Assembly (NCBI GenBank): GCA_039621445.1
Contig: CP154954.1
Coordinates: 44,743,847-44,807,846 of the forward strand
Source of the DNA: Euglena gracilis
Lineage: Eukaryota
Length of the DNA: 64,000 bases
Reading direction: 5' to 3'
The first letter of the stretch is position 1. Each line of letters begins with the position of its first letter. This document shows positions 10,318 through 57,500 of this stretch, piece after piece. The position numbers and the translations under genes were made by a program. The notes below the pieces were generated by a model. That model did not search any database. It had not been told where the DNA came from and saw only the letters and a list, made by a program, of their open reading frames with translations.

Positions 10318-31094
<20,777 letters not shown>

Positions 31095-40759: not shown

Positions 40760-43743
40760 GGTGCTGTGTGGTTTCCAACGGGAGGTGTCCACACCCCCCT
40801 CTTGCAGAATCTCTTTGGTGAGAGAATTCACTCTGTCTGAGGTCAAAGGCCTTTTCCCATCCAAAAACCATAACAAAATATTTTTGTGTCCAACCATGTT
40901 GGCTGTCCTCCCCACATATTCTTGCAATAAATGCCAGGGGCTTATGAGTGGGCTGTGTGGCAGATTCATTACCTCCTCCCACCTGGGGTACTGCCACCCT
41001 TTCCTTTTGTAACAAGATGATTTTTTTTCTCCCAGGAAACTGATCTTTCGCTGGGTTCTGGCACAACCCCCCCCCCCTGTGGATGGCCAACAGCCTCCAA
41101 CAAATGATAAGCCTTTTCGTAAGGTCTTTCAAAGACAATTCTGAGAGGGGTTCAGAGTATTTCCTTAGTCTCCATATAAATTCTGTTGTATCCCAAAAAC
41201 TGGCATACCTAGCAACATTTAAATTCCACTTTCTTTTCAGTGGAGCCAGAAGGAGAGAAAACCTCAATGAACAAAACGTTGGGAGTAACAAAGCTGCCGC
41301 ATATGCATTTCGAGCAGTTCTGAGGCTGTGAATAGCAAGCTCCAGGACGGCCTCAGCCATCTTGTGGGACTGCGCAGTCCTGCAGGGGAACCCTTTGTGC
41401 GACAATTGGCCAACCAATGTCCTGAAGGCTGAGTCACATACTTTCAGATTGCCCATGTTTTTTATCCAAGTGTCGATACTGGACACCGAAACTTCCTGGG
41501 ATTGTAATTTTTTCCTGATACAATCAAGCAGGCCAAATTCCACCTGGAGGTGGGGGGCATCTCCTCCCCCCAGCAGTTGGTGAACAGGCCCCACTGGGGA
41601 GGCACCAGCAAAACTTTGCTGCCTAGCTGTCTGATGGACATTAATTGGCGCCACCATGATGTCGAAGCCCGGTGGGGTACGATTAACAAACAAATTAATT
41701 CTGGTTTAAGAACTAATCTCTGGACCCACTGGTCCATGGATGCTCCAGGGATGGTTTGCATAAACTTGGGTGAGACCCCTTAAATATGCCTTCAGGGCAT
41801 GCACCAGCAAAGCCCCTTGGTGGGGGTATCGACAGATGAACTTGGTAGATTTTTTGTTGCTGGGTGTGAAAAGCATGACCACCTCTAGGGTGATGTTTGC
41901 TTCAGAATTTGGTGAAGGATGTTTAGGTTTAGGGTATAATCCCCTGGTTATTTTTGCTCCCTGGTCAGGGAGTCTGCCAATTGCTCCTAGGTGGGAACCC
42001 AAACCACCTGCAAGTTGATTTTGCTTTTCCTGACAATGGTCCTGTAGGGGTTTGAGTTTTTGTCCAGCCCAACCCCGCACTGCCAGGTGCTGCTGCTCAA
42101 GTACAAGGACAGTTCCTGTGATGCCTGGGATTGAAATGCCCTGCCCAAACCTGGCTGTAAAAATTATTCAGTTCCACAATTGGATCCTTGACCCCCTGTG
42201 GAATGGCCAGGGGGTGTTCCAAACCTTGGTGTGTAACGCCACTATTTTGCAAAGTTGATCTGTCAGAATTCTGAAAAATGAGGATAGAACTGAGTTTTGT
42301 GCAAGCTCATTTTTTTGTTTTCACCACCTTTCCTAAACTCCATTCTTAGTTGTCCTCTTTCAAATTGATCCACTGGCCAAATGCTTTATTTCCTGTGGGG
42401 GTTCCAGACAGTATTTGGGGAGGTTTAGTCTGAAACCTGCCAGAAATAGATCCTATTTCATGTCTATCAAATGCTGGGATGCTGTCTTTTTTCTGGGGTC
42501 TAACAGCAAAATGTCGTCCAGGTAGACCAAAACTACCTTTCCCTCCTTTCTACACTTCCTTTCGCAGACCCTCATGATGATCGTGGTAGGCTGCTTAAGC
42601 CGACGCATGCAACTTGAACCGCCCAGGTTTGGGGATCGCCGTGGGTTGGTCCACGACTATGCGATATCCCGGAGCGGCACTGCGGGCTCAGGAAGCTGCC
42701 TGGCGGGAGACTGTTGAACCGCCAGGTGAGGGCCTCCTTTGTTCCAAACCGTAGTCTGGAGGAAGACGCTAGCCGAGGTCGTGGGTTCGATTCCCGTGTC
42801 GGAAATTGACGTCCGGCTCGGGACGGCGAGAGGCACCGGCCCCTCCTGGGGCATCAAACACAAGCCGTAAAACAAAAACCCCACACAGGTTTCCCCCCCA
42901 CATGCATGCAAACAAATTTTCCATGCTGTTGTGCAACTTTAACTGAAATAAGCATCTGTGAGGTCGTTTTTTCCACAAAAACCAGCCTTTTCTTAAATAT
43001 TGGAAAACGTTTCTCATGTGTTCCTGTCTGAATTTCTGGGGGGTGAAGTGGAGGTTTAATTGTCGACAGTCTTAAATTAGGATTTTCTTTGTCTTTTCCT
43101 CCTCTGTTTTGGAAATGATGAAATAAGGGACAAAATGTTTTGCCTCCTCTGGGGGGATTTGCCTGGTTGCCCCTGCACATTCGTATTCCCTCATCTTTTT
43201 GGCTGTCATAATATCTTGGGGGGATTTGAAATGAACTTTTAAGGACATTTGGGAGGGGAGGGGAAGATCTGCCACAACCCCTTCCCTTCTCAGGTTTAAT
43301 ACCTCTCTGCTGGCTCCTGCCTTGACCCAATGGTGGATGCTGGCCTGCGGGACCCTGTAAGGGGGAACCCCTTGTTGTAATGTGTCCGGGGATCCGCAGG
43401 CCCCAGCACTGGGGCCTCTCCCCCTGGCTGCCCTATCACCGGGGTCCCAGATGGAGGGCTGCCCAGAGCCAGGCTTTCCCTTTGACTGTGAAATGTGGAG
43501 GGGGAAAGTCTGCAGTGGTGTGGTGCACATAAAACAGAAGGGGCAGGGCTGCTCCTTATCTTTGGGGGGGGGGGGCCTGTCTGAGCCAAGCTTGGGCCTC
43601 CCCCCCCAAGGGCTGTTGTGATGCTGCAGAGTTCGAATAAAACGGCCTCCACTGGCCTCAAGATCTTGAAAACTCCACTGGCATCCATTGGCCTCCTGAT
43701 CTTCAGTGAAAGGGCGTCCACTGCCCCGAGATCATGAACCTTC
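40760..43743 (-). mobile_element. Decayed DIRS-type retrotransposon: RT, RNase H, Dam-like MT, tyrosine recombinase
   Basis: FVPYFIISK...DCRQLN, DLTDAY and VLVYLDDILL (RT); VVWVP...ADSL (RH); FICRYP...VYANHPW (MT); RLIICWRLLAIHR and LTSDRVNSLTKEILQEGGVDTSRWKPHST (YR). Many stops and frameshifts. Confidence 0.8.
42742..42804 (+). other. tRNA-like fragment lacking an anticodon arm, inside a ~280-bp insertion (~42580-42860) in the DIRS RT
   Basis: D-stem GTCT/AGAC and T-arm GTGGG-TTCGATT-CCCGT (B box); imperfect acceptor stem. Confidence 0.4.
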
Positions 43744-44550
43744 TGTTCACCGGGTTCGCCACCCCCGGGCCGCCGGTCGCCCCCGCGACCGCCGAGTCCC
43801 TTCGCGCCGAGGGCCCCGGGGGATCCTCGCCGGTGGGGAGGACCACCGACAGGGGGGGTGGTGTTTCCGGGGTGGGGCCTGCGCTTTCTCCGGGGGTTGG
43901 TGGGCTCAAGTCAACCCCCGTTTTTTCACCCAGGTGGTTTCCCCAACCCCAGCCGGTGCGTAGGACCGTTTTTTGAATGGTTTCCGATAATTTGGTGAAA
44001 ACTGAAAAATCTGCCATTTTGATTGCAAATCTCACTTCTCTCCTCTCCCTCTCTCGCACAAAAACCAACCCACTGAACCTTGGAACTTTGAAGTCAAAAC
44101 TGAAAGAAACTTGAATTCTGAAACTCCGAAACTTGAGTGAGAAGACACTTGAAACTGAATCTGTGAAATGTGAATGTATGAAATGTGCAAACCTTGGGGC
44201 AAGGAGCGTTCGGTGAAGGAGGCGAAGGCGGTGATATAGAGGGGTGGGCGGTGGTGTTTAAGGCTCCTTCAATACAATTGACTTCAATGGATAATGACCA
44301 ACAATGAAACTCAGCTTGCAATTACAAATCAAAGTCCAATTGCCAAATTCAATACAATAGTATTCCTTCTTGCCAAATATTGGGGAAACCCCTCAAGTTC
44401 TGTGAAAATGACAAATTTGAAGGCGCTTAGAAATTTGACCCGCTTCCAATTTAAGTCGCGGGTTTTTTTAATTGATTGGCTGTTACCCGCGACTTTGTAA
44501 TTTGCGTCTTCTGGCAATTTTTGGCTGCCGTCGAAAGCCGGTGGCCGACA
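43744..44550 (-). repeat. 3' LTR
   Basis: Preceded on the minus strand by the polypurine tract at 44551-44560. Confidence 0.95.
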
Positions 44551-44964
44551 CCCCCTCCCTTGCGACCTTAGTCGGACCCCAAAAATTCGCCCCCCCCCCG
44601 TTCCTCAACAACGGGGGGGATATCCTCCATTCGGCACTCTTTCATCCAAAGCCTATGTCCCACACCCATTCTCCCTTGAATCAACAAATGGGAAACAAAC
44701 TTCAGGAACTATGGCTTTCAAGTGCCTTCAAACCTTTGGGAAAGACTTGGTTCACCAACCAATGAATATTAGGTAGCCCCCCCCCCCCCCCGCTTCTCAC
44801 GGGTGGTATGAGGGCTCCCAAACCAAAATCCTGTCCCCCCCCCCCTTTTTTCATTTCCACGGGCCTTCACCGGGTCGATTCTTGGTTTTAAAAAAGGGTT
44901 CGGTTTGTAGCACAACCACCCCCTTGGGTCGGCGGTGACTTTTTGATCACAAAAAAATTCGAAA

Positions 44965-45195
44965 ATCGCCCCCCCCCCCTTCCTCGGGCCGGGGGATTTT
45001 TGTCAAAAAAATCGAACGCCCCCCCTCCTCGGGCCGGGGGATTTTTGTCAAAAAAAATCGAACGCCCCCCCCCCTCCTCGGGCCGGGGGGATTTTTGTCA
45101 AAAAATCAAGGCCCCCCCTGGGCCGGGGGTAATTTTTGTCAAAAATTCAAGCCCCCCCCCCTCCTCGGGCTGGGGAGATTTTTGTCAAAAACTCT
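44965..45195. repeat. About 45-bp tandem repeats in the element's 3' non-coding region
   Basis: About five copies of CCTCGGGCCGGGGGATTTTTGTCAAAA. Confidence 0.85.
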
Positions 45196-45759
45196 GTCCC
45201 CTTAACCAACCGAGTGAGGGCTCATAAAGTGACCAAGGACTCCCAACCACAGTGTAATCCATCCTCATCCACACATCCGAATGATTTAGGAAGGAACCCT
45301 TATAACACCACCGCGTGACCGTAATGCGACGGGAAGCAACGCGAGGGGTAGGGAGAGGGAGAGGGAAGAGCGGACGGCAGTATACGGCAAATATAGTAAG
45401 CAACGGTGGAGTGGGGGGTACTGTTCATGCATAAAGTGGTGCCCCCTGGTGGGGCATTCACACTCCTGGCCCCCTTGCGGGGCCTTTTTCTGCCTTTCTC
45501 CATTCTCTTTCCATGGCAGATTCCCATTGTTTGAGCTTGGACATTCTCTCCTTCACACACTCGTGCGCATTTGCGCCCACATACACACACGCACACACAC
45601 AGACATGCAAATCCGGATTTTGAATTTTAATCATGGGGAAAAAAACAGCACTTTGCCTTCCCTCAATCTTGTGTCAAGGCCTCCTAGCTCACTCAAGAGC
45701 TTATGGCCCACCGTCAATTTTTAGTTTGGACATTACGTCCACTTTCACTTTTTTCTCAC

Positions 45760-47307
45760 GACAATATTTCACAAACTCTTCACTGAATCTGTGAATGAAA
45801 TTTACATCTGGTTCCCAGGTTTCCTCCCCGTCCTCATATTCGACCCACTTGGTCAAAAATTCTCATTTTCCATATTTTCCTTTCCGGTGCCTTACGATTT
45901 TTTCCACCTCCCACTCATCAGGTAATGCCTCTTCTTCTTTTTCGGTCCGTTTATAATTAAAAAGAGGCACCCCCTTACCTTCCACTTGGAGTTCCCGATA
46001 CTCCTTCAAAAAACTCCTATGAGCTTTTGTCTCCACCCCAGGCTTCATCTCAATTACATAACTCCGATCCCCTTCTCTACCCTTCACGACCCCAGGTCCC
46101 ACCCACCTAGAGTCAAGCTTCTCGGGGTTCCATTTCTTTCCTCCCCTTATTTATCCTTGCCACCTCCTCCTCATGCTTTTTGTTGAGTATCCTAGCCACC
46201 CTCCCATCAATGTCTTGCATCCTTCGGAAAAACTCCACCGAATCCTCACATTCTTTGGGTGGTTGGTAGGGTACCCCTGCCAATGGTCTTTTCTTTCCAG
46301 TCACAATTTCATATGGTCTCAATCCGCTTTCCCCTTTTACGTCATGAATTCGGTCCAAAACTTGGGGTAAAGCTTCAACCCAATTAATTTTTTCCTCCAC
46401 GTACAATTTTCTCAACACCTCCATTACCTGTTGTCCGGCTCTCTCAACCCTCCCGTTTGCTTGTGGTGGTATGCTTGGGAATACGCTTGCCTAATCCCCA
46501 AAAGAGCACACATGTTTTTCCACCAAGTGCTTGTAAAATGGCTCCCTTGGTCACTTGAGATGACCGAGGGAACCCCAAAAGGCCTCCACTGATTTTTCAC
46601 CATTTCCTTAGCCAACCTGGCCCCGGTTAATCCCTTGTCCTTGCATGCAACCCCACAATCCAACCCGAAAGCCTATCCACACAAAGGGCTAGGGTGTCGT
46701 ACTCCCCCCCGTCGTGTAAAACCCTTGGCATTCGAAACAAATCGATGGCAACACTTGTCATTAGTGCAGGGGGTATGCGTGTGGAGTCGATCGGTCCTTT
46801 CAAACTCTCCCCCCTCACACTCGCTTGGCATGTGGAACAATTTTTGCTGCAATTTTGGTTGAGTTGCTTTGCAGCCTTTTCATCAGCCCAAACAAAACGG
46901 ATTGTCATGTGTTTCCAAACTTTTTCAGGGCCAACGTGCCCCAAAAACCCGTGATTTTCTTGAATCACCAAGGGTTGGAAACTTTCAGGCACACACAACT
47001 TTTCCTCGAAAAACAGTTGACCGTTCAATACTTTATAGCTTTTGGGCCAAACTGAACCACCTTTGGTAGCCTCCCATTTTTCTTTCCATGTGGGGCATCG
47101 GGAATATGCTTCCCCCCAATCACGCTCCCATACGGGCTTAATATCCTTAGGGGTCGTACTGGGCAGGGCGTCCCCCACTTCCATACGAGTGTTCCCCATC
47201 GAACTTTCAGCCGTCTCCGGGACAGGGGTCGTCTCCCCCCCCCACTTTCTCATCCCAAAAATGAATTCGTTTCTTTTCTTTCCTGGGCCCTTGTGAGTGG
47301 GTGTCAA
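45760..47307 (-). CDS. pol: Integrase and C-terminal chromodomain (frameshifted)
   Basis: H-GH...C-xx-C zinc motif, VAIDLF, CVDRLSG, ISSDQGSHF; EWEVEKIVRHR...FLTKW...EETWEP chromodomain. Confidence 0.9.
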
Positions 47308-47409
47308 CAGGGGTGTCTTTTCCTCCTGTGTCTACCACACCCTCGGTTCCCCTCCTTGTGCACTCTCCTTTTTCCTCCTCAGGTGTTACGTTTTTGCCAC
47401 TACGGGTTG

Positions 47410-48769
47410 TCACCCCCCGTATCCACCCATCCAGGCATTACGTAAATTGGGCTGGCTTTTGATTCTTATCTCCAAACACTGTTTTTCCTCTTCTTTTTCC
47501 TCCCGGATAAAATTTTCCATTTCATCCTTGTCGTCGGCTGACCCGTGCTTACTTATGTCCCTTAGGGCTTGTGAAGCTGGGTATGCCCACAGACTAAGGA
47601 TATCAACTATGGTATTTTCTTTACCCGGGATATATCCCACCTTCAAGTCATACTTGGAGAAAATTTGATGCCATCTCGCCCTCCTCCCAACCGGACCACT
47701 GGGGGTGTCTAGGACCTCCCTTGTCCAAGACTCCAAACTTTGGTGGTCGGTTAAAACCAAAACGGGTTGCAATCCAATCCAACTCTCCCATTTTTGTAGT
47801 GCCAAAATTATGGCGTACGTCTCCAACTCCCTAGGGGTCCATTTTCTTTGCCCCTCGGTCAATTTTCGGGACATAAAAGCCACTGGCACAGTTTTTTTCT
47901 CAATCACATCTTGGGCTGTGGGTCTTCCTCCCCCCTCCTTCATTTGCTCTAACGTTGCCCCCACGGCGTATCCACTGGCATCAACCCTTAGCACAAAGGG
48001 TTTATCTGGGTCTACCCGTTGCAACATTAGGCCCGAACACAACCTTTTTTTCAGCTCCTCAAAGGCTTTTAAATCCTCCCCATCAAATTCCACAGGTTTT
48101 CGACTTCCTTTCTTTCCCACCTCCCTGGGGACTTTCAATTTGTCTTGCAGCCGTGCAGCTACTTCCGCATACATGTGAATGTTATGCATTGTAATAATTT
48201 GTGAATCCCAAAAAGGCTCTCAAAGCCGTAATTGTTTTTGGAACCTCCCACCTTTCGATCACTCGTAACTTACCCGGTGCAGGCCTCCTAGTCCCGTTTC
48301 CTAAAATTTGTCCACAAAATTCGACCTCCTCAACGAAAAGTTTGGCTTTGAATTCATCAGCCACCAACAGTTCTGTTTTGAGCACTTCCAACACCCTCCT
48401 CAAATCTTTTTCATGTGCCCCCACTAGATCCTCCCCTTCCCCGACCGTTGTCCCCACCAGTATGTCGTCTATGTACCCTGTGGCGATATCCCTTACTGGT
48501 GTCAAACGGTCGTCGATCATTTGCTGAAATTGCTGGGGGGCATTTGTCAAACCCATTACGTTCACCCTCCACTGAAAAATTCCTTTGAAGGTAAAACAAC
48601 ACGTTATGGGTCGACTTTCTGGGTGCAGAGGTTGTTGGTGAAAAGCTTGCTTCAAATCGATGATCGAAAACATTTGGTTTGCACCATGTTTGACCAAAAT
48701 GTCTTCAATTTTGGGTAGGGGGTAGTTGCATCGCCTTGTTTGGCTGTTTGTGCCCCTGAGGTCCACCAC
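47410..48769 (-). CDS. pol: Reverse transcriptase and RNase H (in-frame stop at 48182, frameshifts)
   Basis: IDLKQAFHQ, MGLTNAP, GYIDDIL, LRAFLGFTNYY; VLRVDASGYAVGA, ELETYAI, LTDHQSL. Confidence 0.95.
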
Positions 48770-49779
48770 CCCTCTCCAAGGAAAATCGTTCGATTTTTTT
48801 GGAACTGGAAAAGTCTGGGACAGCCATTCAGAATTTTTGGCTGTGGCTGGCTGAATGTATTTTTTTTGTCAAGCCAGTCTTGTGCGATTTTTTCAAGTGC
48901 CTCTTTCCGCTCACCGTGCATGAAAAAACGCTTCTGTCTGGTTGGTTTTGCAGGTATGTATGCATAACCATATTGTCGTCTTTCGTGGGGGTCTGGAAAT
49001 GGTGATGACCGAAATACCGTCCCCCGGTAATCTTCCAAAACTTGTTCCCTCAACTTGACTACCCGTTCCTCCTCTTTTTTGTTCTCCCCCTCCCTTGCAA
49101 TTATCATTCGGTTGATAACTTGCATTGGGGGGTCACTTCCCTCCAAATTCGTGGCAACCTCCCCCAGGTCCTCATCGCTCAAAAATTGCAATTCCTGGTC
49201 CAACCCCTGCAATGGCAAACAAAGCCCAAGTTTTTGCAACCGAAACGAAGACCCGTCTGCCACAGTCACATTGTCCACTGAAAATTTTTTGTCATCACTG
49301 AATTTTTGCGGACCCCTCCGTTTTTCAACACCCCGCAAAAAAATCTGGTCGGGGCTGTCTTTCACCAACGCCTTGTGGTGTGGAAAAATTCCAAGTTTTG
49401 CCTCCGCCAACCATGGATAAGAAAGAATGGCATCAACTTTGATGTTTGCCTCATAAAATTCAACCTCATATTCCACCCTCTCAATTTCCCTTTCCTCATT
49501 CCATTTTTGTTGTAGGATCATTTTCACCTTTTCACATCTGCTCCCCCCCGCCAAAGTTTGCCCATTGGCAGTTTCAGACCTTAACGGGTCCTTAGCAGGA
49601 TACATTAGGTGGTCCCCTATCAACCCTTGTCGAATGAGGTTTGCCTCCGCCCCCGTATCAATCAAAATTCTGGCCGTTTTTTCCTCCCCATTTGCCAACT
49701 TAATCTGGGTTTTTAACAGAAGTTGTCTGTCCTCCCCGAGTTTCTTCGATCCTCCCCGAGTTTTCGTCCCCCTCAACAT
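48652..49779 (-). CDS. pol: Aspartic protease and start of RT
   Basis: ILIDTGAEAN catalytic motif and the downstream DAILSYPWL. Confidence 0.88.
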   Translation of the reverse strand: MLRGTKTRGGSKKLGEDRQLLLKTQIKLANGEEKTARILIDTGAEANLIRQGLIGDHLMYPAKDPLRSETANGQTLAGGSRCEKVKMILQQKWNEEREIERVEYEVEFYEANIKVDAILSYPWLAEAKLGIFPHHKALVKDSPDQIFLRGVEKRRGPQKFSDDKKFSVDNVTVADGSSFRLQKLGLCLPLQGLDQELQFLSDEDLGEVATNLEGSDPPMQVINRMIIAREGENKKEEERVVKLREQVLEDYRGTVFRSSPFPDPHERRQYGYAYIPAKPTRQKRFFMHGERKEALEKIAQDWLDKKNTFSQPQPKILNGCPRLFQFQKNRTIFLGEGWWTSGAQTAKQGDATTPYPKLKTFWSNMVQTKCFRSSI

Positions 49780-49787
49780 TCATTTTT

Positions 49788-51107
49788 TCAGCCGAACCAA
49801 TTTTTTCTTCCCTGCGGCTGCCACCCCCCCCCCTTGGAGGGTTGCCTTCTGTCAATCAACAAGGCCCACACCCCCCAACGGGTACCCCTCAAAATCCTCC
49901 CATCAGCCTCAAACAACTTTGTCCCCTTGGGAAAATAAATCTTTTTGACAGCCATAACCACCAGATTTTTCACCCACCTCCTATTCCAGTCTGGACATAT
50001 GCAAATCGCCTGACAATTGGAATTTTGCAATTTTTCAGCCACCTCCGGCCACAAATTCCAGAGGGGGTTCATCCACAACGTTTCCTCCGCCCCCCAATCC
50101 TTTTTCATGGCATCATCATCCTCCCCGTAAAACTTTTCACACCTAGCATTTTGGCTGGTTGCAAAACAATCCCGTTCCGCCTTAACCCGAAATTCCTTCT
50201 CAATTTCCTCCACACAAACTTTCCTAACAGCATAATCCTCCCTACGATATCCGCTTTTTCGTTCCAACACGGTTAACAAATACTCCACCAGTTGTTTGGG
50301 CATCCTCCATTTTTTCTGGGTGCCAACTGTCATTCCATATCCTCCCAACTTTTCTCGGTGACTCCTCCCCCCAGGAATCAAATTCGGACAGGTCTGGCCA
50401 TCACAAAGTTTGTTTTGTAGCTTGCTCAGATTTTCGCTCCCCCAGATTCGGGTGGGCTTTTGATATCCCCAATCTGAAAACTGACAATAGTCATCATCGA
50501 CAAAAGTCAGGTTTTGAACACAGGGTCTTTTCCGCAAAAGTCCATGACGGGGATTTTCAATCCACCACAACTTTGGTTTGAAATATTCGACAATCTCCAA
50601 AGTTTTTTTGACCAGCCGATCTGCCCCCTCCAAATTTCTGACTCCCAATGTTTTGGCCAAGCTATATTCTGTACAGGGCACTCCTGCAGCGATGATCTGA
50701 AAATATCCGGGGGGGTACCTCCAATATCTCCACTCCAAAATATTTGCACAGTGGGTTGGGTTAAATCTGGGGTTTATGTCCACTGACACAACCTTAAAAC
50801 CCTGCTCTCTGAGGCAATCCCCAACCGAGCCTTTACCGCAAAAAAGGTCTAAAGCTCTTTTCTTTACGGAAGGCTGTGCACGACCTCTTATGAGGTCTGT
50901 TGTTTTACAGATTTGGGCTGAATCACAGATTTGCACGTCACGCACACACGGACCCAACACACTGGACACACCTTGCGCAGAGATCTCCTGGGATGGCAGA
51001 TTTTTCATCGTGTTTTCATTCGCACGAGATTTCTCATGCCACCTGGGATTTGCGTATGTCTTTGTGTGGGTCTGGGTATGCGAGCCCGGGACGGCTCCCG
51101 CCCCCAA
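49788..51107 (-). CDS. Fused C5-cytosine DNA methyltransferase (~50274-50860) and Dam-like N6-adenine methyltransferase (~49851-50240)
   Basis: C5 motifs: ALDLFCGKGS (I), VVSVD (II), GVPCTEYS (IV), WIENP (VI), QKPTRIW (VIII-like). Dam-like motifs: RDCFA...NARCEKFY...DAMKKDW...LWMNPLW...ICPDW. Confidence 0.85.
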   Translation of the reverse strand: MGAGAVPGSHTQTHTKTYANPRWHEKSRANENTMKNLPSQEISAQGVSSVLGPCVRDVQICDSAQICKTTDLIRGRAQPSVKKRALDLFCGKGSVGDCLREQGFKVVSVDINPRFNPTHCANILEWRYWRYPPGYFQIIAAGVPCTEYSLAKTLGVRNLEGADRLVKKTLEIVEYFKPKLWWIENPRHGLLRKRPCVQNLTFVDDDYCQFSDWGYQKPTRIWGSENLSKLQNKLCDGQTCPNLIPGGRSHREKLGGYGMTVGTQKKWRMPKQLVEYLLTVLERKSGYRREDYAVRKVCVEEIEKEFRVKAERDCFATSQNARCEKFYGEDDDAMKKDWGAEETLWMNPLWNLWPEVAEKLQNSNCQAICICPDWNRRWVKNLVVMAVKKIYFPKGTKLFEADGRILRGTRWGVWALLIDRRQPSKGGGWQPQGRKNWFG

Positions 51108-51125
51108 CGGTCCACCCCGGCTGTC

Positions 51126-54100
51126 CTAGCATCGGTTTTCTTTCCCCCTTCCTTTTCCTTTGCCTTTCCCACCATCCTGGCCCTTTCCCCTAGACCAGTC
51201 ATTTCCATTGTTTCCTTTCCCCCAAGAATTGTTTCCTTTGCCTTTTCCTTTGCCTTTGCCTTTGCCACCACCAGACTGTGAATCAAAATTCTGTTGATTT
51301 GAGTGCCACCACTGATTTCCCTGAAAATTGCCATTGGCATTGTAATTCCACCCAGAATCGTTTCTCCATCCCCCCCCCCATTGCCAAACTGAGATTGCTG
51401 GGGGGGTGGTAATGACTGTGATCGAACCACTGGCACTGGATTTTGCACGGGGGGGGTTCACGTTTGCATTGGTCGCAGGAGCTGCCACCTGTGGATCTGA
51501 TTTTCCAACGGACGGTTTTGCCACCGTTTCGCACCCCTTGGCTGACCGTGTTGGGGAGGGTGTCCTGGACCCCTTGGCCCGATCTGCCTTAGCAGACCTG
51601 GCCCTCCGGTTTCCAAACGTATTTGGCTCCCTGGAACGGTGTATCATGTCTTGAGAATCCCTGGAAGACAATTTTCGCTCAACAAAACGTAACATTTCTT
51701 CAGCTCCCATTTTTGGCTGTTCCTCCACAATTTTGATCCTTTTATCCGTGCCTGTGATTGGTTTCCCACTGACCTCTTTCAGTTTCTCGCAAATCGTAGT
51801 GTTGGGCAAAAAGACTTCGAACTCCAGCGGTGAAACTTTCAAAACCTTGCAGGGCTTTTCCCCAGTGACACGTTCCACGGCACAAATAATGTTTTCCTCG
51901 GTTGCTGGCACTCCAGTGTACATTTTGACTTTCGGTCCACACGTTGATTTTCTTTCCTCCTCATCGGCGACCCAATGCAAAATGAAATTTGGCAGTTTTC
52001 CCTTGACCAGTCTTTCTGCCTCATCGTCAGTGGCACTTTTCACCTGTCTCCAAGCCATTCTGAAATTTATGACAAAATCTCGCCATTCCCGTACGGTAAT
52101 TTTCCCTTGGTTCACAAGGTTCACATTATACCATTTTGTTCTGGCGCACTCGGACTGAGTTCCAGCATATTTCCCGTCAATCCTGTCAAATTCCTCCTCA
52201 GAAGATGTTTTTCCGTTCAATTCCGTTCGGAATTGCAATTCCTTTTGATTTGTGTCGTCCAGCGTCATTGAAAAAAGCTGAAGCTTGAGTGAATCAGACA
52301 CATGTCCATTTTGCAAAATAACCACCGTCCTGAAATATTGATCCCAATCCCGCACAAAGGACGACCAGTCTTTTGTCTGTCCAGAAAAATTTGGAGCTAC
52401 CAGGTTTTTCATCAATTGATGCGTTGCCACTGCATTTGATGAAACTAGTCCTGCACCTGCAGGCACTGCCCCCACAGGTCGTGCACAAACCTGCCTGACA
52501 TGTGTCGCATGTGACCCTGGTTCAGCGTATTCATAGCTTTCAATTTCAACCAGATTTTTCTCGATCACAGGTAAGTCGTTGTAACCAAAAATATCAAACT
52601 CTTCGATTTCTGGGTTTCCAGCTGATTTTTCTCTCGTTTCCTTTGTCAGATCCACTGTCGCAGATTTGGCAGATTCAGCTTGCTGATTTTTCATCACCAA
52701 AACTCAGCCTGAAATAATTCCAGCTTTTGTTGCAATTTTTTCCGCTCCTGCTGTTCTTTTCGAAGTTCAATGCATTGCTGTTGCAGTAAAACTCCAACCT
52801 GCTGTTTCATCGAGTTTTCCATTTCAGCCCGAACTTTTTCAAGCTGCCCCTCCCTTTCACTCAGCCTCAACCTTTCCTGCAACATTTCACTGATAATGAC
52901 CTCCAAATTCTTTCTCCTTTGCAGCCCCAACTCCCTTTGCACCTCCAACCGAATTGTTTCCTCACTCTTGTTAATCAGGTCACAGACTTTCTCAATGGGA
53001 AAATCTTTCCGACCCAGAAAATTCTCCAACCAGCCCAAACGATCATTCAGAGATTTGCCCTCTCGCTCCAGGGACTGTGAAAATTCCTTCAATTTCTCAG
53101 CCTGTGCCTGAAAATTGGCACACTCAGTCTCCCCCAAACTTTTGCATTGCTGAAAAATGGTCCCAAAGCGTCCCTCCGGACCAGAGCTTAGCTCACCGAC
53201 TGCAGATTTGACCTGATTAACAGCTATTTCCTGCTTTTTTTTCTTCTCCCCCACTTGTTGCACCACCACGTGCATCTCCCCCACAGATTTTTCCAAAAAC
53301 GACAGCTTCTGAGAAAAATTCCTCTCATTTTTTCTCAACCCCTCAACCTGGGTCTCAAAAAACGTGTTTACTCCATCCTCCACTTTCTTCACTTTTTCAG
53401 CAAACTGCCGTTCCATTTCCACACTCAACAAACATCTTTGGCATTGGGCCAGATTTTGCACCATTTCACCATTTTGCTGAAACTGCAAAAGCAAGTCGTT
53501 CACAGTTGAACTCAGTTCAGCCTGAATTTCACGTTTCACCATGGCAATGTGATCAGCCATTCGCTGATCATGCATGCCCAATGCCTCATTGACCAGATTC
53601 AATGCCTGCCCATTTGACATGGCCAATGCCCGATTTAGCCTGTTTTCTGCCTCACCCACCAAAATTTCAGCCGTTTTTTCAGGGTTTTTTCCTTCCTGCA
53701 CCAAAAGTCTGCCATGTAAACATTCAACTTTGCAACTGATTTCTTCACCCCAATTGTTCCAATCATCATCAGATTGGCCATAGCCCGATTCCATTTCCAC
53801 ATCATGCTGATTTCAGGGTTTTCGGACCCAGTTTCTGCAAAAAAAAAAAACTGGTGTTTGGCTGTAAATTCTGTGGCTGGGTCTGTGGAAAATCTGGCTG
53901 AATTGGCTGAAAATTCTGGGCTGGGCCTGTGTTTGAAGACACTGTTAACGCTGGCTGAAAAACCTGCCCATGCATCTGGGCTGATCCCATGATTGCTGGA
54001 ACAGATGACTCAGCAGAAAACTGCTGGACTGGCTGAACAACCTGTGAAGTCATCTGGGCTGGCCCCATGATTGCTGGAACAGATGACCCAGCCGAAAACT

Positions 54101-55437
54101 GCCGGGCTGGCTGAAAAACCTGTGAAGTCACCTGGGCTGGCCCCATGATTGCTGGGACAGGTGACCCAGCTGAAAACTGCTGGGCTGGCTGAAAAACCTG
54201 TGAAGTCATCTGAGATGGCCCCATGATTGCTGAAACAGATGACCCGCCGAAAACTGCTGGGCTGGCTGAAAAACCTGTGAAGTCATCTGGGCTGGCCCCA
54301 TGATTGCTGGGACAGATGACCCAGCCGAAAACTGCTGGGCTGGGTGAAAACCCTGTCCAGGCATCTGGGCTGGGACAGACATCTCAGCCGAAAACGGCTG
54401 GGCTGGCTGAAAAACCTGCAGCTGGGCTGCAGCTGGCTGTGCTGACTGCGTTTCTGAACTCTGTGTTAACAGCAATGGTTCTGGCTGGCTGTTAAACACA
54501 ACATTTTTTGTTCTGGCCCTGGGCTGCTGTCTCGTGACGACACAGAAATTTGCTGAAAACCTGAAAAATTTACTGGCCACATGCCAGCAGCTTTCATTCT
54601 TTGCATATCCATTTCCTGAATTATTGCGTTTTCAGCCTGCTTTTCTTCCTCTGTTTCACTTTTGTAAGCTGGGGGGTCTGGTTCCTCATCACTGCTGTGC
54701 AGTGGAACCAGCTGAAAATTTTCTGGCCCTGCCACCGTGATGGGCCTTATGCATGTAATTGACACCCTCCCAGAATCAGCATCAGATTCTGATGCTTGTG
54801 TCGTTTCTGAAAATTCTGAAGACGATAAAGTTTCTGCAGCCTGAAAATTGTTTTCTGCCACAGATTCCGTCACGATTTGCAATGATGCCACAGATTCTGA
54901 AAACTGGGCTGCAGAAAACTCAGTTTCCTTTTCGTTCTGAAAATAGATATCTGCCACAGATCTCAGAAAATTTTCACCACAATCTGAAACTCGGACAGAA
55001 TGATCTGAAAACGAGCAGATTTCTGCAGATTCTTCTGAAAATTCACAGACAACTGGGTTGGTGAAGCTGCTCTCGTGTACCATGTTTACCGGGTCTGACT
55101 TGTCATCAACGGAAACTGAAACCTCTTCACTGACAGAGTCAGCGAAGTAACCTCTGCGTACCATGTTCACCGGGTTCGCCACCCCCGGGCCGCCGGTCGC
55201 CCCCGCGACCGCCGAGTCCCTTCGGGCCGAGGGCCCCGGGGGATCCTCGCCGGTGGGGAGGACCACCGACAGGGGGGGTGGTGTTTCCGGGGTGGGGCCT
55301 GCGCTTTCTCCGGGGGTTGGTGGGCTCAAGTCAACCCCCGTTTTTTCACCCAGGTGGTTTCCCCAACCCCAGCCGGTGCGTAGGATCGTTTTTTGAACGG
55401 TTTCCGATAATTTGGTGAAAACTGAAAAATCTGCCAT
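51126..55437 (-). CDS. gag: Long gag-like region (acidic N-terminus, 78-bp repeats, coiled coil, capsid-like part, GK-rich tail) split into several ORFs
   Basis: ORFs 54466-55437, 53802-54580, 52694-53800 and 51126-52700. APNFSGQTKDWSSFVRDW resembles a retrotransposon capsid motif; position is upstream of pol. Confidence 0.6.
53945..54420 (-). repeat. 78-bp coding tandem repeat (QMTSQVFQPAQQFSAGSSVPAIMGPA)
   Basis: CATGATTGCTG recurs at ~78-bp spacing. Confidence 0.9.
55149..55163 (-). promoter_or_regulatory. Primer binding site
   Basis: TGG-starting 15-mer abutting the 5' LTR; cognate tRNA not identified. Confidence 0.7.
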
Positions 55438-55986
55438 TTTGATTGCAAATCTCACTTCTCTCCTCTCTCTCTCTCTCGCACACCTTGTTAGCAAAAACCA
55501 ACCCACTGAACCTTGGAACTTTGAAGTCAAAACTGAAAGAAACTTGAATTCTGAAACTCCGAAACTTGAATGAGAAGACACTTGAAACTGAAACTGTGAA
55601 ATGTGAATGTATGAAATGTGCAAACCTTGGGGCAAGGAGCGTTCAGTGAAAGAGGCGAAGGCGGTGATATAGAGGGGTGGGCGGTGGTGTTTAAGGCTCC
55701 TTCAATACAATTGACTTCAATGGATCAATGACCAACAATGAAACTCAGCTTGCAATTCCAAATCAAAGTCCAATTGCCAAATTCAATACAATAGTATTCC
55801 TTCTTGCCAAATATTGGGGAAACCCCTCAAGTTCTGTGAAAAATGACAAATTTGAAGGAGCTTAGAAATTTGACCCGCTTCCAATTTAAGTCGCGGGTTT
55901 TTTTTAACTGATTGGCTGTTACCCGCGACTTTGTAATTTGCGCCTTCTGGCAATTTTTGGCTACCGGCGAAAGCCGGCGGCCGACA
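55164..55986 (-). repeat. 5' LTR
   Basis: Direct repeat of 43744-44550, with roughly 15-20 differences by eye plus short indels. Confidence 0.95.
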
Positions 55987-57500
55987 CTTCCCCTGGCCTC
56001 CACTGGCCTCCTGATTTGATTATAATGGCCTCCACTGGCCTTCTTTCCTCCATCTCTCCTTTGAGTTGGATGATCCTGCTGGGCCCAAATTCCGTGATGG
56101 GGTGACTTCGTGCTGTATTGATGAGCGGCTCCTGAGGGGTTTATGCTTGAGGGAGCTGCGGGGAAAAATGGACATGCCTTTCCCCAATGGCAGTTTCCCA
56201 TCTTGATAGTCTGGCTTCCATAGCCTTCAAGTTGGGCTCTATGCCCTGTTGAGTGATGGCTGCCATAGCCTTGCTGAAAAGGGCTTCCGTGCCCCTGATG
56301 CAGTCCATGTTGCCTTTGGACTTTCCCCCTGGGCGGGGGGTGGGGATGTGTAAAAGGGGGGGTTGTCTGCCAGACCTGTTTTCCCATTTCCAGCTGGCAA
56401 CTTCTCCACTTGGGCTGTGGACTGCTGCCTTCTTTGTCTCCTCGACTTTCTGGCCACCACTGTCCAGGGTCCATGGCCGTCGTTGAACTGTTGGAACTGA
56501 GATTTTTCTGGGTCATTGGAGGGTGGGGGGGTTGCGACGGCCACGGAGTGGCGTTCTGCACCTGCACCAGTGGGGTTCTCCAGCGCCTGCTGCTCCTACA
56601 CTCTTCTCCACTTCTGGGGTCGTTCTTTAATTTGCTTCGGCGCTTGCTGGTGCTCCATCTTCTCGAGCTTCTGCTGCCTTCGCTTGGGTTCTTTGCTGCT
56701 CCTCTTTGCAGCTGGGTAATTGGGTTGTTGCATATTTTCTTGGAAATCAAAAAATGTTCTTCCGATTTCTTTATCTTACGGATTTCTCTCCACCACTGAA
56801 TTGATTGCTTGATGGTGGTGAACGTATTTGAACTCATTGGGTTGAAATTCTTTCCCCTTGAGGTCGAACGGAAGATTTTGGACTCAACCAACTCCGGCAA
56901 CAAAAACAAGTAAGAAGCACAACATACACACACCGGAGCAGAGCAGCCGGAAAGGAAAGCAGGGCCTCACCATCTCGCAGTGCGTGGTCGGCACTAAGCA
57001 GAGACTCCGAGCCCAGCGTCTCACAATCACACAACAGACCGCCGGCGAGCAAGGCATGGCCTCGCAAGGGCAAAGTGCGGGTGCCGCAGGGGAATTTTGG
57101 TGTCTGCCAGCCCCGGGGGAAAGGGCACTGCGTGGGGCCTCCTAGCCCAGCTCGTCACATTCAACCAGCAGACCGCCAGCGAGGGAGGCATGGTGCTGAA
57201 AGGGCAAAGTGCGGAGCCCCAGGTGGTCCGTTTCCGCGGGGAGGGTTCGAAAAGCAAAAAAAAAAAGCCCTGAAAGGGCTTGAAGAAACCAAAAAAATAG
57301 CCCAAAAACGCCACCAACGTCCAGATGAGTTTTTTTTTAAAAAAAATAACCAAAACGCCCAATGGCATAATTGCCATGCCCACGTGCAAACCGACATTGG
57401 CCAATATTTTCCCAAGGCAATGCAAAAATAGCCCCCAAACTAGCAAAAAAACAATCCAAAATAGTCTAGGTGCAATCATTATTGGAGACTTGTAGACTAA
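55987..57500 (-). mobile_element. Probable 5' (gag-like) half of the interrupted DIRS element
   Basis: The GGCCTCCACTGGCCTC motif continues on both sides of the LTR insertion; degenerate low-complexity ORF. Outer boundary uncertain. Confidence 0.5.

What the first reader, a model, noticed from the sequence alone, without database searches (positions are those of the whole stretch)
49788..51107. Gypsy chromodomain retrotransposon with tandem 5mC and 6mA methyltransferases between gag and protease
Seen: one reading frame holds a compact C5-MTase with intact FxGxG, PC and ENP motifs, followed directly by a Dam-like domain (DCFA...NPLW...PDW). It lies inside a bona fide LTR element that also ends in a chromodomain. 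NPLW (CTC) is one transition from NPPW (CCC). Established: Dam-like domains are typical of DIRS elements, and C5-MTase capture by retrotransposons is known in dinoflagellates and a charophyte. I do not know of a Gypsy with both types fused, or of one in a euglenid. Inference: the polyprotein could be packaged and methylate its own cDNA, giving an element with two DNA-mark writers and a chromatin reader.
Basis: partly seen in the sequence, partly recalled or inferred. Interest (0 to 1): 0.88.

Follow-up and report, generated by a model that had tools for sequence, protein, structure and literature searches.

The report
Dual-methylase Euglena retrotransposon, broken copy
A 12-kb jumping gene that carries a cytosine-methylase domain, an adenine-methylase-like domain and a chromatin-reading domain is really there, but this kind of element was described in Euglena in a 2026 preprint and this copy is damaged.

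Summary
Window 43744-55987 (minus strand) is a 12,244-bp Ty3/Gypsy chromovirus-type LTR retrotransposon. One reading frame (49788-51125) holds a compact C5-DNA-methylase domain directly followed by a Dam-like (PF05869) domain. It lies after the gag-like frame and before the protease. Both Pfam matches pass their curated cut-offs, both domains fold with high confidence, and 161 fetched relatives keep the catalytic motifs. Relatives and a 95%-identical Euglena gracilis transcript carry the module in one pol reading frame, so it is not a one-off insertion.

It is not new. A May 2026 bioRxiv preprint (Fernandez-Moreno et al.) describes exactly this class, E. gracilis "EpiLTRs" with chromodomain, DAM and DNMT.

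This copy is defective as assembled. It has NPLW where the family has NPPW, a stop inside the chromodomain, and at least eight frame changes in pol. Several frame changes sit at homopolymer runs and could be assembly errors.

Four details are absent from the preprint's main text:
- gag and pol are separated by a single in-frame TAG followed by a conserved hairpin signal.
- The two methylase modules sit in different orders around the protease in relatives.
- The compact DNMT has stand-alone homologues on giant-virus-like contigs.
- The closest solved fold to the Dam core is the RNA cap m6A methylase CAPAM.

Enzyme activity and targets remain inferred.

The parts
55164..55987 (-). 5' LTR (824 bp, TG...CA)
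   Evidence: Direct repeat with 43744-44551: 96.4% over 824 columns, with 17 substitutions and 4 indel events. Ends read.
43744..44551 (-). 3' LTR (808 bp)
55988..55991 (-). Target-site duplication GAAG, upstream copy. The downstream copy is at 43740-43743.
   Evidence: Read directly.
55151..55163 (-). Primer-binding-site-like sequence starting with TGG, directly after the 5' LTR
   Evidence: It could not be matched to a tRNA because ARAGORN finds none in the window.
44552..44562 (-). Polypurine tract AAGGGAGGGGG directly before the 3' LTR
51129..55163 (-). gag region, split here over four frames. The pieces are an ORF that starts inside the LTR (54469-55701), a 78-nt tandem repeat (53950-54400), a coiled-coil-looking ORF (52697-53812) and a gag-like ORF (51129-52703).
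   Evidence: Other copies carry +A at 52698 and +T at 53810, which join the frames. There are weak homologues (21-26% identity) upstream of pol in L042, L043 and L051. Feature search points to PNMA / Retrotrans_gag at scores of 0.80 or less, which is a lead only. No Pfam match.
51126..51128 (-). In-frame TAG between gag and pol
   Evidence: The same layout is seen in 5 relatives.
51056..51125 (-). Candidate read-through signal: a G-rich spacer and a GC-rich hairpin whose loop ends in GGGAG
   Evidence: Not shown to function, and weakest in this copy, which lacks the downstream CTCCC.
50250..50873 (-). Compact C5 DNA methyltransferase domain (about 208 aa) with motifs FxGxG, PC, ENP and QKPTR
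   Evidence: Pfam. Motif conservation in relatives. AlphaFold2 pLDDT 92. Foldseek matches to DNMT3A/3B, DNMT1, DIM2 and M.HhaI at E about 1e-7.
49818..50240 (-). Dam-like N6-adenine methyltransferase core (about 130 aa), with DCFA and NPLW where the family has NPPW
   Evidence: Pfam PF05869. Comparison with P0128. Model pLDDT 93.5. Fold matches: CAPAM Z 10.6, T4 Dam 8.9, EcoDam 8.7.
49779..49827 (-). Frame change between the Dam domain and the protease, in a C/G homopolymer run. The TGA at 49788-49790 ends the methylase frame here.
   Evidence: In P0128 the frame is continuous.
48862..49779 (-). Aspartic protease region
   Evidence: Asp_protease_2 E 0.0012, below its cut-off. 92.9% identity to P0128 residues 144-453.
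48185..48865 (-). Reverse transcriptase
   Evidence: RVT_1 E 3.7e-19. 97.8% identity to P0128.
47422..48180 (-). RNase H (Ty3/Gypsy type)
   Evidence: RT_RNaseH E 2.7e-25
46125..47298 (-). Integrase (H2C2 zinc domain and core), split over three frames
   Evidence: Integrase_H2C2 28.5 bits. Aligned piecewise to P0128 residues 970-1362, which carry rve. Other copies have +C at 46650 and +G at 46462.
45779..45913 (-). Chromodomain with an internal TGA at 45863-45865. pol ends at 45704.
   Evidence: PF00385 39.2 bits with TGA read as X. Alignment. All other copies and reads show TGG there (place 45863).

Best explanation
This is one defective copy of the Euglena gracilis 'EpiLTR' family, a Ty3/Gypsy chromovirus-type LTR retrotransposon.

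In the intact family a very long gag frame ends in a single in-frame UAG. Pol follows in the same frame as DNMT - Dam-like - protease - RT - RNase H - integrase - chromodomain.

Shown here:
- the element's anatomy;
- both methylase folds and their motifs;
- the module sits in the same place in relatives;
- the module is under purifying selection at family level.

Inferred:
- Pol is made as a Gag-Pol fusion by read-through of the UAG.
- The two methylase domains therefore enter the particle as the first part of Pol and are released by the protease.
- They act on the element's own replication intermediate or newly integrated DNA. The DNMT would write CpG 5mC, which is the default state of the Euglena genome. 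The Dam-like core would write N6-methyladenine.
- The chromodomain steers integration.

I put identity at about 0.95, catalytic activity of the DNMT at about 0.6, activity of the Dam-like core on any nucleic acid at about 0.45, and action on the element's own cDNA inside the particle at about 0.3. This copy cannot do any of it as assembled.
For: Anatomy: LTRs, target-site duplication, polypurine tract and domain order.

Family membership:
- 123 of 130 residues are identical to EG_transcript_113 (P0128) over the Dam domain. P0128 carries Dam-PR-RT-RH-IN-Chromo in one 1540-aa frame.
- 'EG_transcript' identifiers occur in 10 E. gracilis papers (search listing).
- The preprint describes E. gracilis LTR elements with chromodomain + DAM + DNMT.

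Not a one-off insertion:
- 4 of 4 long relatives scanned (P0120, P0122, P0123, P0124) have DNMT then Dam then RT-RH-IN in one frame, and 3 of the 4 end in Chromo.
- Family contig depth over the module matches that over RT in run X1 (372,000-434,000 against 329,000-428,000).

Constraint on the module:
- Motif residues are kept in relatives of 38-72% identity: F 36/36, PC 37/37, E and P of ENP 38/38 each (N 34/38), K-P-T 38/38 each and R 37/38. The second Pro of NPP is kept in 15/23.
- In 7 computable pairs of relatives, dN was 0.26-0.51. Synonymous sites were saturated in 6 pairs, and dN/dS was 0.09 in the seventh. One further pair failed on a stop codon. dN of DNMT (0.258) and Dam (0.262) lies below that of the protease (0.396) for L042-L050.

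Folds:
- The two-domain model has pLDDT 92.0, with DNMT3A/3B, DNMT1, DIM2 and M.HhaI at E about 1e-7.
- The Dam core model has pLDDT 93.5. CAPAM scores Z 10.6, T4 Dam 8.9 and EcoDam 8.7.

Read-through layout:
- A single in-frame stop lies at the gag/pol junction in the window and in 5 relatives.
- GGGAG follows at +13 to +27 in 6 of 6, and CTCCC lies 25 nt after it in 4 of 6. Neither pair occurs in 44 other in-frame stops flanked by long open frames.
Against: No activity has been shown for either domain. The preprint found no rise in 6mA when the eukaryotic DAMs it tested were expressed in dam-deficient E. coli (Results section read).

The Dam-like core is only about 130 aa and has no recognisable target-recognition domain. 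Its Pfam match covers profile positions 19-69 of 169.

The DNMT Pfam score only just passes its cut-off (22.4 against 22.0) and covers only motifs I-VI.

CpG observed/expected in the element (0.59) equals that of the flanks (0.60 and 0.55), so there is no element-specific footprint.

RNA support is thin. 300 reads were laid from about 5% of the RNA data, only 8 of them at 99% identity or more, and both orientations were about equal. The preprint also reports low or undetectable LTR expression in E. gracilis.

Hairpin free energies after the stop are no better than shuffles in 5 of 6 sequences. In the window copy the downstream CTCCC is absent.

This copy has NPLW, a nonsense codon and many frame changes.
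Confidence: 0.75

Rival explanations
1. The methylase stretch is a nested insertion of another element (for example a DIRS fragment) or a chimeric assembly. On this view it is not a true part of a Gypsy pol.
For: The preprint itself raises nested insertions and assembly artefacts for Euglena DAM-LTRs. This assembly copy has many indels at homopolymer runs.
Against: The same DNMT-Dam-RT-RH-IN order lies in one uninterrupted frame in 4 of 4 long relatives from other assemblies, and the E. gracilis transcript has Dam joined to PR-RT-RH-IN-Chromo. Only the two element LTRs were found as long direct repeats in 42000-58000. Family depth is even across the module and RT. No laid contig among the 15 joints listed (14 more were not shown) skips exactly the module.
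Confidence: 0.03
2. One or both methylase domains are pseudo-enzymes. They would be kept for binding nucleic acid, SAM or a host factor rather than for methyl transfer.
For: The preprint's E. coli assay for eukaryotic DAMs was negative. The Dam core lacks a target-recognition domain and matches only part of PF05869. The second Pro of NPP is kept in only 15 of 23 relatives.
Against: The catalytic Cys-containing PC, the ENP Glu and the FxGxG residues of the DNMT are invariant or nearly so in 36-38 relatives. The family consensus keeps NPPW. dN is low for both domains. Stand-alone viral homologues of the DNMT, 204-333 aa long, suggest the 200-aa unit is a complete enzyme.
Confidence: 0.2
3. The Dam-like core methylates RNA or the RNA:DNA hybrid of reverse transcription rather than double-stranded DNA. 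A candidate substrate is adenosines of the element's own genomic RNA.
For: The best solved fold match is the cap-specific RNA adenosine methylase CAPAM/PCIF1 (VIA Z 10.6, rmsd 2.9, 126 aligned), and all 5 Foldseek matches with E <= 0.001 are CAPAM. rRNA adenine methylases (Erm, KsgA, DIMT1) score Z 8.4-8.9, level with T4 and E. coli Dam at 8.9 and 8.7. The E. coli DNA assay was negative and the preprint's authors suggest a hybrid substrate.
Against: The Pfam family matched is a DNA adenine methylase family. No PF05869 member seems to be solved (sequence search), so the fold ranking cannot tell DNA from RNA specificity. The preprint reports more 6mA on DAM-LTR insertions than on other LTRs, which is a DNA mark.
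Confidence: 0.12
4. The many element-borne DNMT copies serve the host. On this view they supply much of the near-complete CpG methylation of the Euglena genome, as has been proposed for dinoflagellate retrotransposon DNMTs.
For: The family is very abundant: 17,671 contigs of run X1 were laid at 90% identity or more. [quoted passage not shown] De Mendoza et al. 2018 report hundreds of retrotransposon DNMTs in Symbiodinium (section heading and passages seen).
Against: Expression of the family is low (preprint). I could not survey host DNMT genes because no genome is held. Nothing here links the element's DNMT to genome-wide methylation.
Confidence: 0.08

Closest known systems
Euglena gracilis EpiLTRs (Fernandez-Moreno et al., bioRxiv 2026, 10.64898/2026.05.21.726589)
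   Same: An LTR retrotransposon of E. gracilis encoding a chromodomain, a DAM (PF05869-type) domain and a DNMT domain. A transcript of that species is 95% identical over the Dam domain.
   Different: Nothing in kind; this is a damaged member. The preprint's main text does not mention gag, protease, stop codon or read-through (0 occurrences each). The position of the module and the junction signal may therefore be new detail. I could not see the figures or supplements.
Cymbomonas tetramitiformis EpiLTRs (same preprint)
   Same: A chromovirus-like element with DAM, DNMT and chromodomain. The DNMTs are reported as monophyletic with the Euglena ones.
   Different: There the DNMT is appended to the 3' end of pol. 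Here it opens pol, before the Dam domain and the protease.
DIRS1-like retrotransposons with a Dam-like methylase domain
   Same: The same Pfam family, PF05869. The preprint derives LTR-borne DAMs from DIRS elements.
   Different: DIRS elements use a tyrosine recombinase and have no DDE integrase, chromodomain or DNMT. This element has LTRs, H2C2/rve integrase and a chromodomain.
KnitGypsy-Dnmt3 of Klebsormidium nitens, and SymbioLINE-Dnmt / SymbioDIRS-Dnmt3 of Symbiodinium (de Mendoza et al. 2018, PMC5890265)
   Same: A C5-methylase inside a retrotransposon pol frame, with conserved catalytic residues and purifying selection (passages seen).
   Different: Those carry Dnmt3-type or other DNMTs and no adenine methylase. 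The preprint states the EpiLTR DNMT is a separate acquisition, sister to DNMT4. I did not test that placement.
Stand-alone compact C5-methylases on giant-virus-like metagenomic contigs (IMG/VR)
   Same: The same roughly 200-aa domain, with PC and ENP/ENV motifs and 24-47% identity, on 39 contigs. Two contigs examined carry Nucleocytoviricota-type genes: Pox_A32 with D5_N, and a C962R-type primase.
   Different: These are free genes of 204-333 codons with no retroelement genes nearby. One branch of the DNMT tree (SH-like support 77, weak) separates 115 of 117 retroelement-context rows from 55 of 56 others.
Gammaretrovirus-type gag-UAG-pol read-through (recalled, not tested)
   Same: A single in-frame stop between gag and pol, followed by a purine-rich spacer and a GC-rich structure.
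   Different: The host is a protist LTR retrotransposon. The structure is only predicted and no read-through was measured. The comparison rests on my memory of the retroviral signal.

Membership tests
Ty3/Gypsy (Metaviridae) LTR retrotransposon, chromovirus type | Two long terminal repeats with TG...CA ends, flanked by a short target-site duplication | tested here: met
   LTRs of 824 and 808 bp with 2.1% substitution divergence. GAAG lies on both sides.
Ty3/Gypsy (Metaviridae) LTR retrotransposon, chromovirus type | pol order protease - RT - RNase H - integrase (integrase after RT) | tested here: met
   Pfam matches in that order along the minus strand. The order is the same in P0128 and P0120-P0124.
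Ty3/Gypsy (Metaviridae) LTR retrotransposon, chromovirus type | Chromodomain at the C-terminus of the integrase | tested here: met
   PF00385 at 39.2 bits with the internal TGA read as X. The domain carries a stop in this copy.
Ty3/Gypsy (Metaviridae) LTR retrotransposon, chromovirus type | RT groups with Ty3/Gypsy RTs in a phylogeny | not tested
   No reference RT set was available. The preprint notes that some Euglena DAM-LTR RTs branch oddly.
Ty3/Gypsy (Metaviridae) LTR retrotransposon, chromovirus type | Primer-binding site complementary to a tRNA 3' end | tested here: inconclusive
   A TGG-starting sequence follows the 5' LTR. No tRNA gene is in the window and no genome is held.
C5 DNA methyltransferase (PF00145) | Profile match above the curated cut-off | tested here: met
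   22.4 bits against a cut-off of 22.0, covering profile positions 3-117 of 324 only.
C5 DNA methyltransferase (PF00145) | Motifs I (FxGxG), IV (PC with the catalytic Cys) and VI (ENV-like Glu) | tested here: met
   FCGKG, PC and ENP are present. They are invariant or nearly so in 36-38 relatives.
C5 DNA methyltransferase (PF00145) | DNMT fold | tested here: met
   pLDDT 92.0. DNMT3A/3B, DNMT1, DIM2, M.HhaI and M.HaeIII match at E 7e-8 to 8e-7.
C5 DNA methyltransferase (PF00145) | A target-recognition domain between motifs VIII and IX | tested here: inconclusive
   The whole domain is about 200 aa, against 270-330 aa for the matched chains. No separate sub-domain is evident, but I did not map it.
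C5 DNA methyltransferase (PF00145) | Methyl transfer to cytosine C5 | not testable with these tools
   Needs an enzyme assay.
Dam-like N6-adenine methyltransferase (PF05869) | Profile match above the curated cut-off | tested here: met
   36.5 bits against a cut-off of 28.1, but profile positions 19-69 of 169 only.
Dam-like N6-adenine methyltransferase (PF05869) | Catalytic (D/N)PP(Y/F/W) motif | tested here: not met
   This copy has NPLW. The family has NPPW: P0128, the A2 consensus, and Pro in 15 of 23 aligned relatives.
Dam-like N6-adenine methyltransferase (PF05869) | Class I methyltransferase fold of the N6-adenine type | tested here: met
   pLDDT 93.5. CAPAM Z 10.6, T4 Dam 8.9, Erm/KsgA 8.8-8.9, EcoDam 8.7.
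Dam-like N6-adenine methyltransferase (PF05869) | DNA adenine methylation activity | not testable with these tools
   The preprint reports a negative E. coli assay for the eukaryotic DAMs it tested.
EpiLTR (preprint definition) | LTR retrotransposon that encodes DAM, DNMT and a chromodomain together | tested here: met
   definition
EpiLTR (preprint definition) | DNMT belongs to the clade sister to DNMT4 | not tested
   No reference DNMT4 sequences were at hand. DIM2 had the highest identity (21%) among the rows listed, which is only a hint.

The most novel reading that the evidence does not exclude
The two methylase cores are minimal enzymes without target-recognition domains. On this reading they came from giant-virus-type stand-alone genes. 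They ride into the particle as the first part of a read-through Gag-Pol. They then mark the replication intermediate (genomic RNA, RNA:DNA hybrid or nascent cDNA) rather than chromatin. The Dam-like core would act like the cap m6A methylase CAPAM, on RNA or on the hybrid. That would explain why DNA assays in E. coli were negative.
Probability: 0.15. Interest if true: 0.7.

Novelty: already known. Interest (0 to 1): 0.33.

Why it matters
Elements that carry their own writers of 5mC and 6mA plus a chromatin reader show that transposons can bring an epigenetic toolkit with them instead of only evading the host's. That case has already been made in the 2026 preprint.

This window adds a well-resolved example of the Euglena architecture and four testable details:
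- A single UAG and a conserved downstream signal probably control how much methylase-bearing Pol is made.
- The modules are separable units placed on either side of the protease in relatives.
- The compact DNMT has giant-virus-like relatives.
- The Dam core looks most like an RNA adenine methylase.

Naturally damaged copies such as this one (NPLW, stops) could serve as internal controls when methylation is compared across copies.

Tried and rejected
- Whole-genome census, family consensus and dN/dS among paralogues: not possible, because no genome is held for this window.
- Other copies in the window: none (tblastn). The blastn half of that script crashed and was not repeated.
- Rfam at gathering threshold: 0 matches in the window.
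- tRNA genes: 0, so the primer-binding site could not be matched.
- Earlier findings of this scan: nothing by place, sequence or words.
- Solved structures by sequence: nothing meaningful for the Dam core (best E = 2, an unrelated permease). The A1 profile gave only weak DNMT1 and generic methylase hits (E around 1e-3).
- gag identity: no Pfam match. Atlas feature scores were 0.80 or less, which is a lead only.
- dN/dS among relatives: synonymous sites were saturated in 6 of 7 computable pairs, so only dN and one ratio (0.09) could be given. One further pair failed on a stop codon.
- Hairpin energies after the stop: z-scores were -2.3 in 1 of 6 sequences and between -1.5 and +0.1 in the other 5. 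The minimum-free-energy test does not support the structure by itself and cannot see pseudoknots. I did not run a formal covariation count because the stems lie in different alignment registers.
- Cluster look-up of 10 relatives: almost no names or taxa.
- Neighbours of the viral DNMT in L005: no Pfam or PHROG match.
- Dam gains and losses on the DNMT tree: the labels were too dependent on truncated proteins to interpret.
- Nested-insertion reading: rejected (see rivals).
- Leaf-litter metatranscriptome run X19 holds family contigs. I draw no habitat conclusion from it.
Full report
WHAT IS THERE

On the minus strand, window 43744-55987 is a 12,244-bp LTR retrotransposon.

- Two direct repeats (55987->55164 and 44551->43744) align at 96.4% over 824 columns. 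They differ by 17 substitutions (2.1%) and 4 indel events.
- Both repeats begin with TG and end with CA. They are flanked by GAAG on both sides.
- A TGG-starting sequence follows the 5' LTR, and a polypurine tract (AAGGGAGGGGG) precedes the 3' LTR.
- Reading down the minus strand, Pfam finds a protease (weak, below cut-off), RVT_1 (E 3.7e-19), Ty3/Gypsy-type RNase H (E 2.7e-25) and the integrase H2C2 domain.
- A chromodomain scores 39.2 bits when an internal TGA is read as X.

THE FLAGGED FRAME

The frame 51125->49791 (445 codons) starts directly after an in-frame TAG (51126-51128) that closes a 525-codon gag-like frame.

- It matches DNA_methylase PF00145 (22.4 bits, cut-off 22.0; residues 91-199) and Dam PF05869 (36.5 bits, cut-off 28.1; residues 305-356).

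IS IT REAL AND CONSTRAINED?

The frame has 119 relatives of similar length (best E 1.3e-140) and 42 longer ones.

Motif conservation in an alignment of 40 relatives at 38-72% identity:

| Motif residue | Kept in relatives |
|---|---|
| F of FxGxG | 36/36 |
| PC | 37/37 |
| E and P of ENP (each) | 38/38 |
| N of ENP | 34/38 |
| K, P, T of QKPTR (each) | 38/38 |
| R of QKPTR | 37/38 |
| Second Pro of NPP | 15/23 |

Structure:
- AlphaFold2 on this alignment gives a two-domain model with mean pLDDT 92.0.
- The first domain matches DNMT3A/3B, DNMT1, DIM2, M.HhaI and M.HaeIII at E about 1e-7.
- The Dam part folded alone has pLDDT 93.5.
- Its best solved neighbour is the cap-specific RNA adenosine methylase CAPAM (Z 10.6, rmsd 2.9, 126 residues aligned). 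T4 Dam (8.9), ErmE/Erm38/KsgA (8.8-8.9) and E. coli Dam (8.7) follow.
- No solved relative is found by sequence.
- The core is about 130 aa and aligns to both halves of T4 and E. coli Dam while skipping their DNA-recognition insert.

Selection:
- Among metagenomic relatives, dN is 0.26-0.51. Synonymous sites are saturated in 6 of 7 computable pairs, and the seventh gives dN/dS 0.09. One further pair failed on a stop codon.
- For the pair L042-L050, DNMT (0.258) and Dam (0.262) change less than the protease (0.396).

The module therefore does not evolve neutrally at family level.

NOT A ONE-OFF INSERTION

- Four of four long relatives scanned (P0120, P0122, P0123, P0124) have DNMT, then Dam, then RT-RNase H-integrase in one frame. 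Three of them end in a chromodomain.
- P0128, named EG_transcript_113 by EukProt, is identical at 123 of 130 residues over the Dam domain. It carries Dam-PR-RT-RH-IN-Chromo in a single 1540-aa frame.
- Identifiers of that form occur in 10 Euglena gracilis papers (search listing), so the window is E. gracilis or a very close relative.
- Reads and contigs of four public runs were laid on 45700-53900. They cover the methylase stretch as deeply as the RT (run X1: 372,000-434,000 against 329,000-428,000, summed word depth).

THIS COPY IS DAMAGED, AT LEAST AS ASSEMBLED

Against P0128, the pol of this copy has to be read in pieces. Frame changes lie near:
- 49827-49779 (Dam to protease)
- 48865
- 48182
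- 47421-47431
- 47298-47333
- 46650
- 46462
- 46124

Further points:
- The chromodomain holds TGA where all other copies have TGG (place 45863).
- The laid runs show that other family members differ from the window by indels at those very places:

| Place | Difference in other copies |
|---|---|
| 46462 | +G |
| 46650 | +C |
| 47421 | -8 |
| 48182 | -1 |
| 48860 | -2 |
| 52698 (gag) | +A |
| 53810 (gag) | +T |

- The catalytic motif is NPLW here but NPPW in P0128 and in the family consensus.
- Many of the indel sites abut homopolymer runs of 4-10 bases. Some lesions may therefore be assembly errors rather than mutations, and I could not decide this.
- RNA support is slight. 300 reads were laid from about 5% of the RNA data, with only 8 at 99% identity or more.
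- CpG observed/expected is 0.59 in the element, against 0.60 and 0.55 in the flanks.

WHAT IS KNOWN

[quoted passage not shown] I read the outline, abstract and whole Results section, and searched passages in other sections. It reports the following:
- DAM domains occur in non-DIRS LTR retrotransposons.
- 'EpiLTRs' are defined as LTR elements with a chromodomain plus both DAM and DNMT domains. They are found in Cymbomonas tetramitiformis (DNMT at the 3' end of pol) and in Euglena gracilis ('structurally distinct configuration').
- The EpiLTR DNMTs are sister to DNMT4.
- Eukaryotic DAMs keep the Asn-Pro-Pro pocket but lack part of the prokaryotic enzyme.
- The eukaryotic DAMs tested added no 6mA in E. 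coli.
- E. gracilis has near-default CpG methylation, more 6mA on DAM-LTRs than on other LTRs, and low LTR expression.

It is the only paper in the held library with all four terms 'Euglena gracilis', 'retrotransposon', 'methyltransferase' and 'chromodomain'. De Mendoza et al. 2018 (PMC5890265; abstract start in the search listing and searched passages seen) cover the earlier DNMT captures in Symbiodinium and Klebsormidium.

WHAT THIS ANALYSIS ADDS

The preprint's main text has no occurrence of 'gag', 'protease', 'stop codon', 'readthrough' or 'PCIF1'. Its figures and supplements were not available to me and may cover some of the points below.

(a) The gag/pol junction is a single in-frame stop.
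- The window has TAG, with 525 open codons before it and 445 after.
- L042 has one TAG in an otherwise open 8.2-kb frame, with 1431 codons before it and 1297 after.
- L043 and L050 also have TAG. L046 and L048 have TGA.
- After the stop, all six have a G-rich spacer and a GC-rich hairpin, with an invariant GGGAG at +13 to +27.
- Four of the six have CTCCC exactly 25 nt after GGGAG. None of the 44 other in-frame stops flanked by 140 or more open codons shows that pair.
- This suggests stop-codon read-through aided by a pseudoknot. The evidence is weak: free energies beat shuffles in only 1 of 6 sequences, and the window copy lacks the CTCCC.

(b) The module order varies among relatives.

| Order | Seen in |
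|---|---|
| DNMT-Dam-PR | window, P0120-P0124 |
| Dam-PR-DNMT | L042, L043, L044, L050 |
| DNMT-PR without Dam | L041, L047, L048, L049 |
| PR-DNMT | L046, L051 |

- Of 64 fetched relatives with 200 or more residues after the DNMT, 24 have a Dam domain.
- The two methylases thus behave as separable units around the protease.

(c) The DNMT is a compact unit of about 200 aa with many relatives.
- 2,967 cluster representatives match at E <= 1e-3, and 229 at E <= 1e-30.
- Stand-alone homologues (204-333 codons stop to stop in the 22 of 39 loci I examined; 24-47% identity) lie on 39 IMG/VR contigs.
- Two contigs whose neighbours I scanned and that gave matches carry Nucleocytoviricota-type genes: Pox_A32 with D5_N, and a C962R-type primase next to a D12 adenine methylase. 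A third contig gave no matches.
- In a FastTree of 277 DNMT domains, one branch with weak support (SH-like 77) separates 115 of 117 retroelement-context rows from 55 of 56 rows without such context. 104 rows of unknown context were left unlabelled.

HOW IT MOST LIKELY WORKS

Shown: the anatomy, the folds, the motifs, the constraint and the shared junction layout.

Inferred:
- Ribosomes mostly stop at the UAG and make Gag.
- A minority read through and make Gag-Pol, whose first two domains are the DNMT and the Dam-like core.
- These domains are carried into the particle by Gag and freed by the protease.
- They act where the other Pol enzymes act, on the replication intermediate or on the newly integrated copy.
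- The chromodomain guides integration.

In a genome where CpG methylation is the default and 6mA marks a minority of active promoters (preprint), writing 5mC could make new DNA look like the host's. Writing 6mA could favour transcription. Neither has been tested.

RIVALS

- Nested insertion or chimeric assembly: about 0.03.
- One or both domains are pseudo-enzymes: about 0.2.
- RNA or RNA:DNA hybrid as the substrate of the Dam-like core: about 0.12.
- The element's DNMTs supply host genome-wide CpG methylation: about 0.08.

VERDICT

This is a damaged member of a family already described in a 2026 preprint. Interest is moderate to low for this window, with a few testable side observations.

Noticed in passing
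window 51056-51128 (-); L042 4296-4368; L043 3768-3840; L050 2679-2751; L046 640-712; L048 446-518: gag and pol are separated by one in-frame stop (TAG in four, TGA in two). A G-rich spacer and a GC-rich hairpin with an invariant GGGAG follow. CTCCC lies exactly 25 nt after GGGAG in 4 of 6 junctions and in 0 of 44 control stops. This may be a read-through pseudoknot.
   Followed up: partly
L041-L051 and proteins P0120-P0146: Related elements place the two methylase modules differently around the protease: DNMT-Dam-PR, Dam-PR-DNMT, DNMT-PR without Dam, and PR-DNMT. Only 24 of 64 relatives with enough sequence after the DNMT have a Dam domain.
   Followed up: partly
L001-L039 (IMG/VR contigs), e.g. 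L020 3846-4682, L007 4965-5759: Stand-alone compact C5-methylase genes related to the element's DNMT lie on AT-rich viral contigs. L020 also has Pox_A32 and D5_N genes. L007 has a C962R-type primase and a D12 adenine methylase.
   Followed up: partly
window 51129-55163 (-): The whole 4,035 nt between the 5' LTR and the TAG is probably one giant gag frame in intact copies; relatives have 1,255-1,431 open codons before the stop. It includes an ORF that starts with ATG inside the LTR (about 55436) and a 78-nt tandem repeat (53950-54400, 5 copies).
   Followed up: partly
window 46462, 46650, 47235, 48860, 49826, 51370, 51449, 52698, 53841: Indels that set this copy apart from other family members lie mostly at homopolymer runs of 4-10 bases. 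That pattern fits long-read assembly error as well as real mutation.
   Followed up: partly
protein P0013 (NCBI EPS62093.1): A 719-aa 'hypothetical protein M569_12700, partial [Genlisea aurea]' carries the same DNMT and Dam domains. It may come from a non-plant sequence in that plant assembly or from a true relative. I did not examine it.
   Followed up: no
window 43632-43723 and 55989-56041: The sequences on the two sides of the insertion resemble each other (80-88% over 26-50 nt). The element seems to have landed inside a short tandem repeat.
   Followed up: no
window about 23100-25240, 26081 and 26560 (+): Repeated units elsewhere in the window encode near-identical peptide stretches several hundred bases apart. 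This looks like another repeat family or tandem array.
   Followed up: no
run X19 (coded), laid on window 45700-53900: Contigs of a leaf-litter metatranscriptome cover nearly the whole element at 90-99% identity (29 of 30 bins). Family members therefore occur in environmental RNA libraries. Transcription is not shown, because DNA can be present in such libraries.
   Followed up: no
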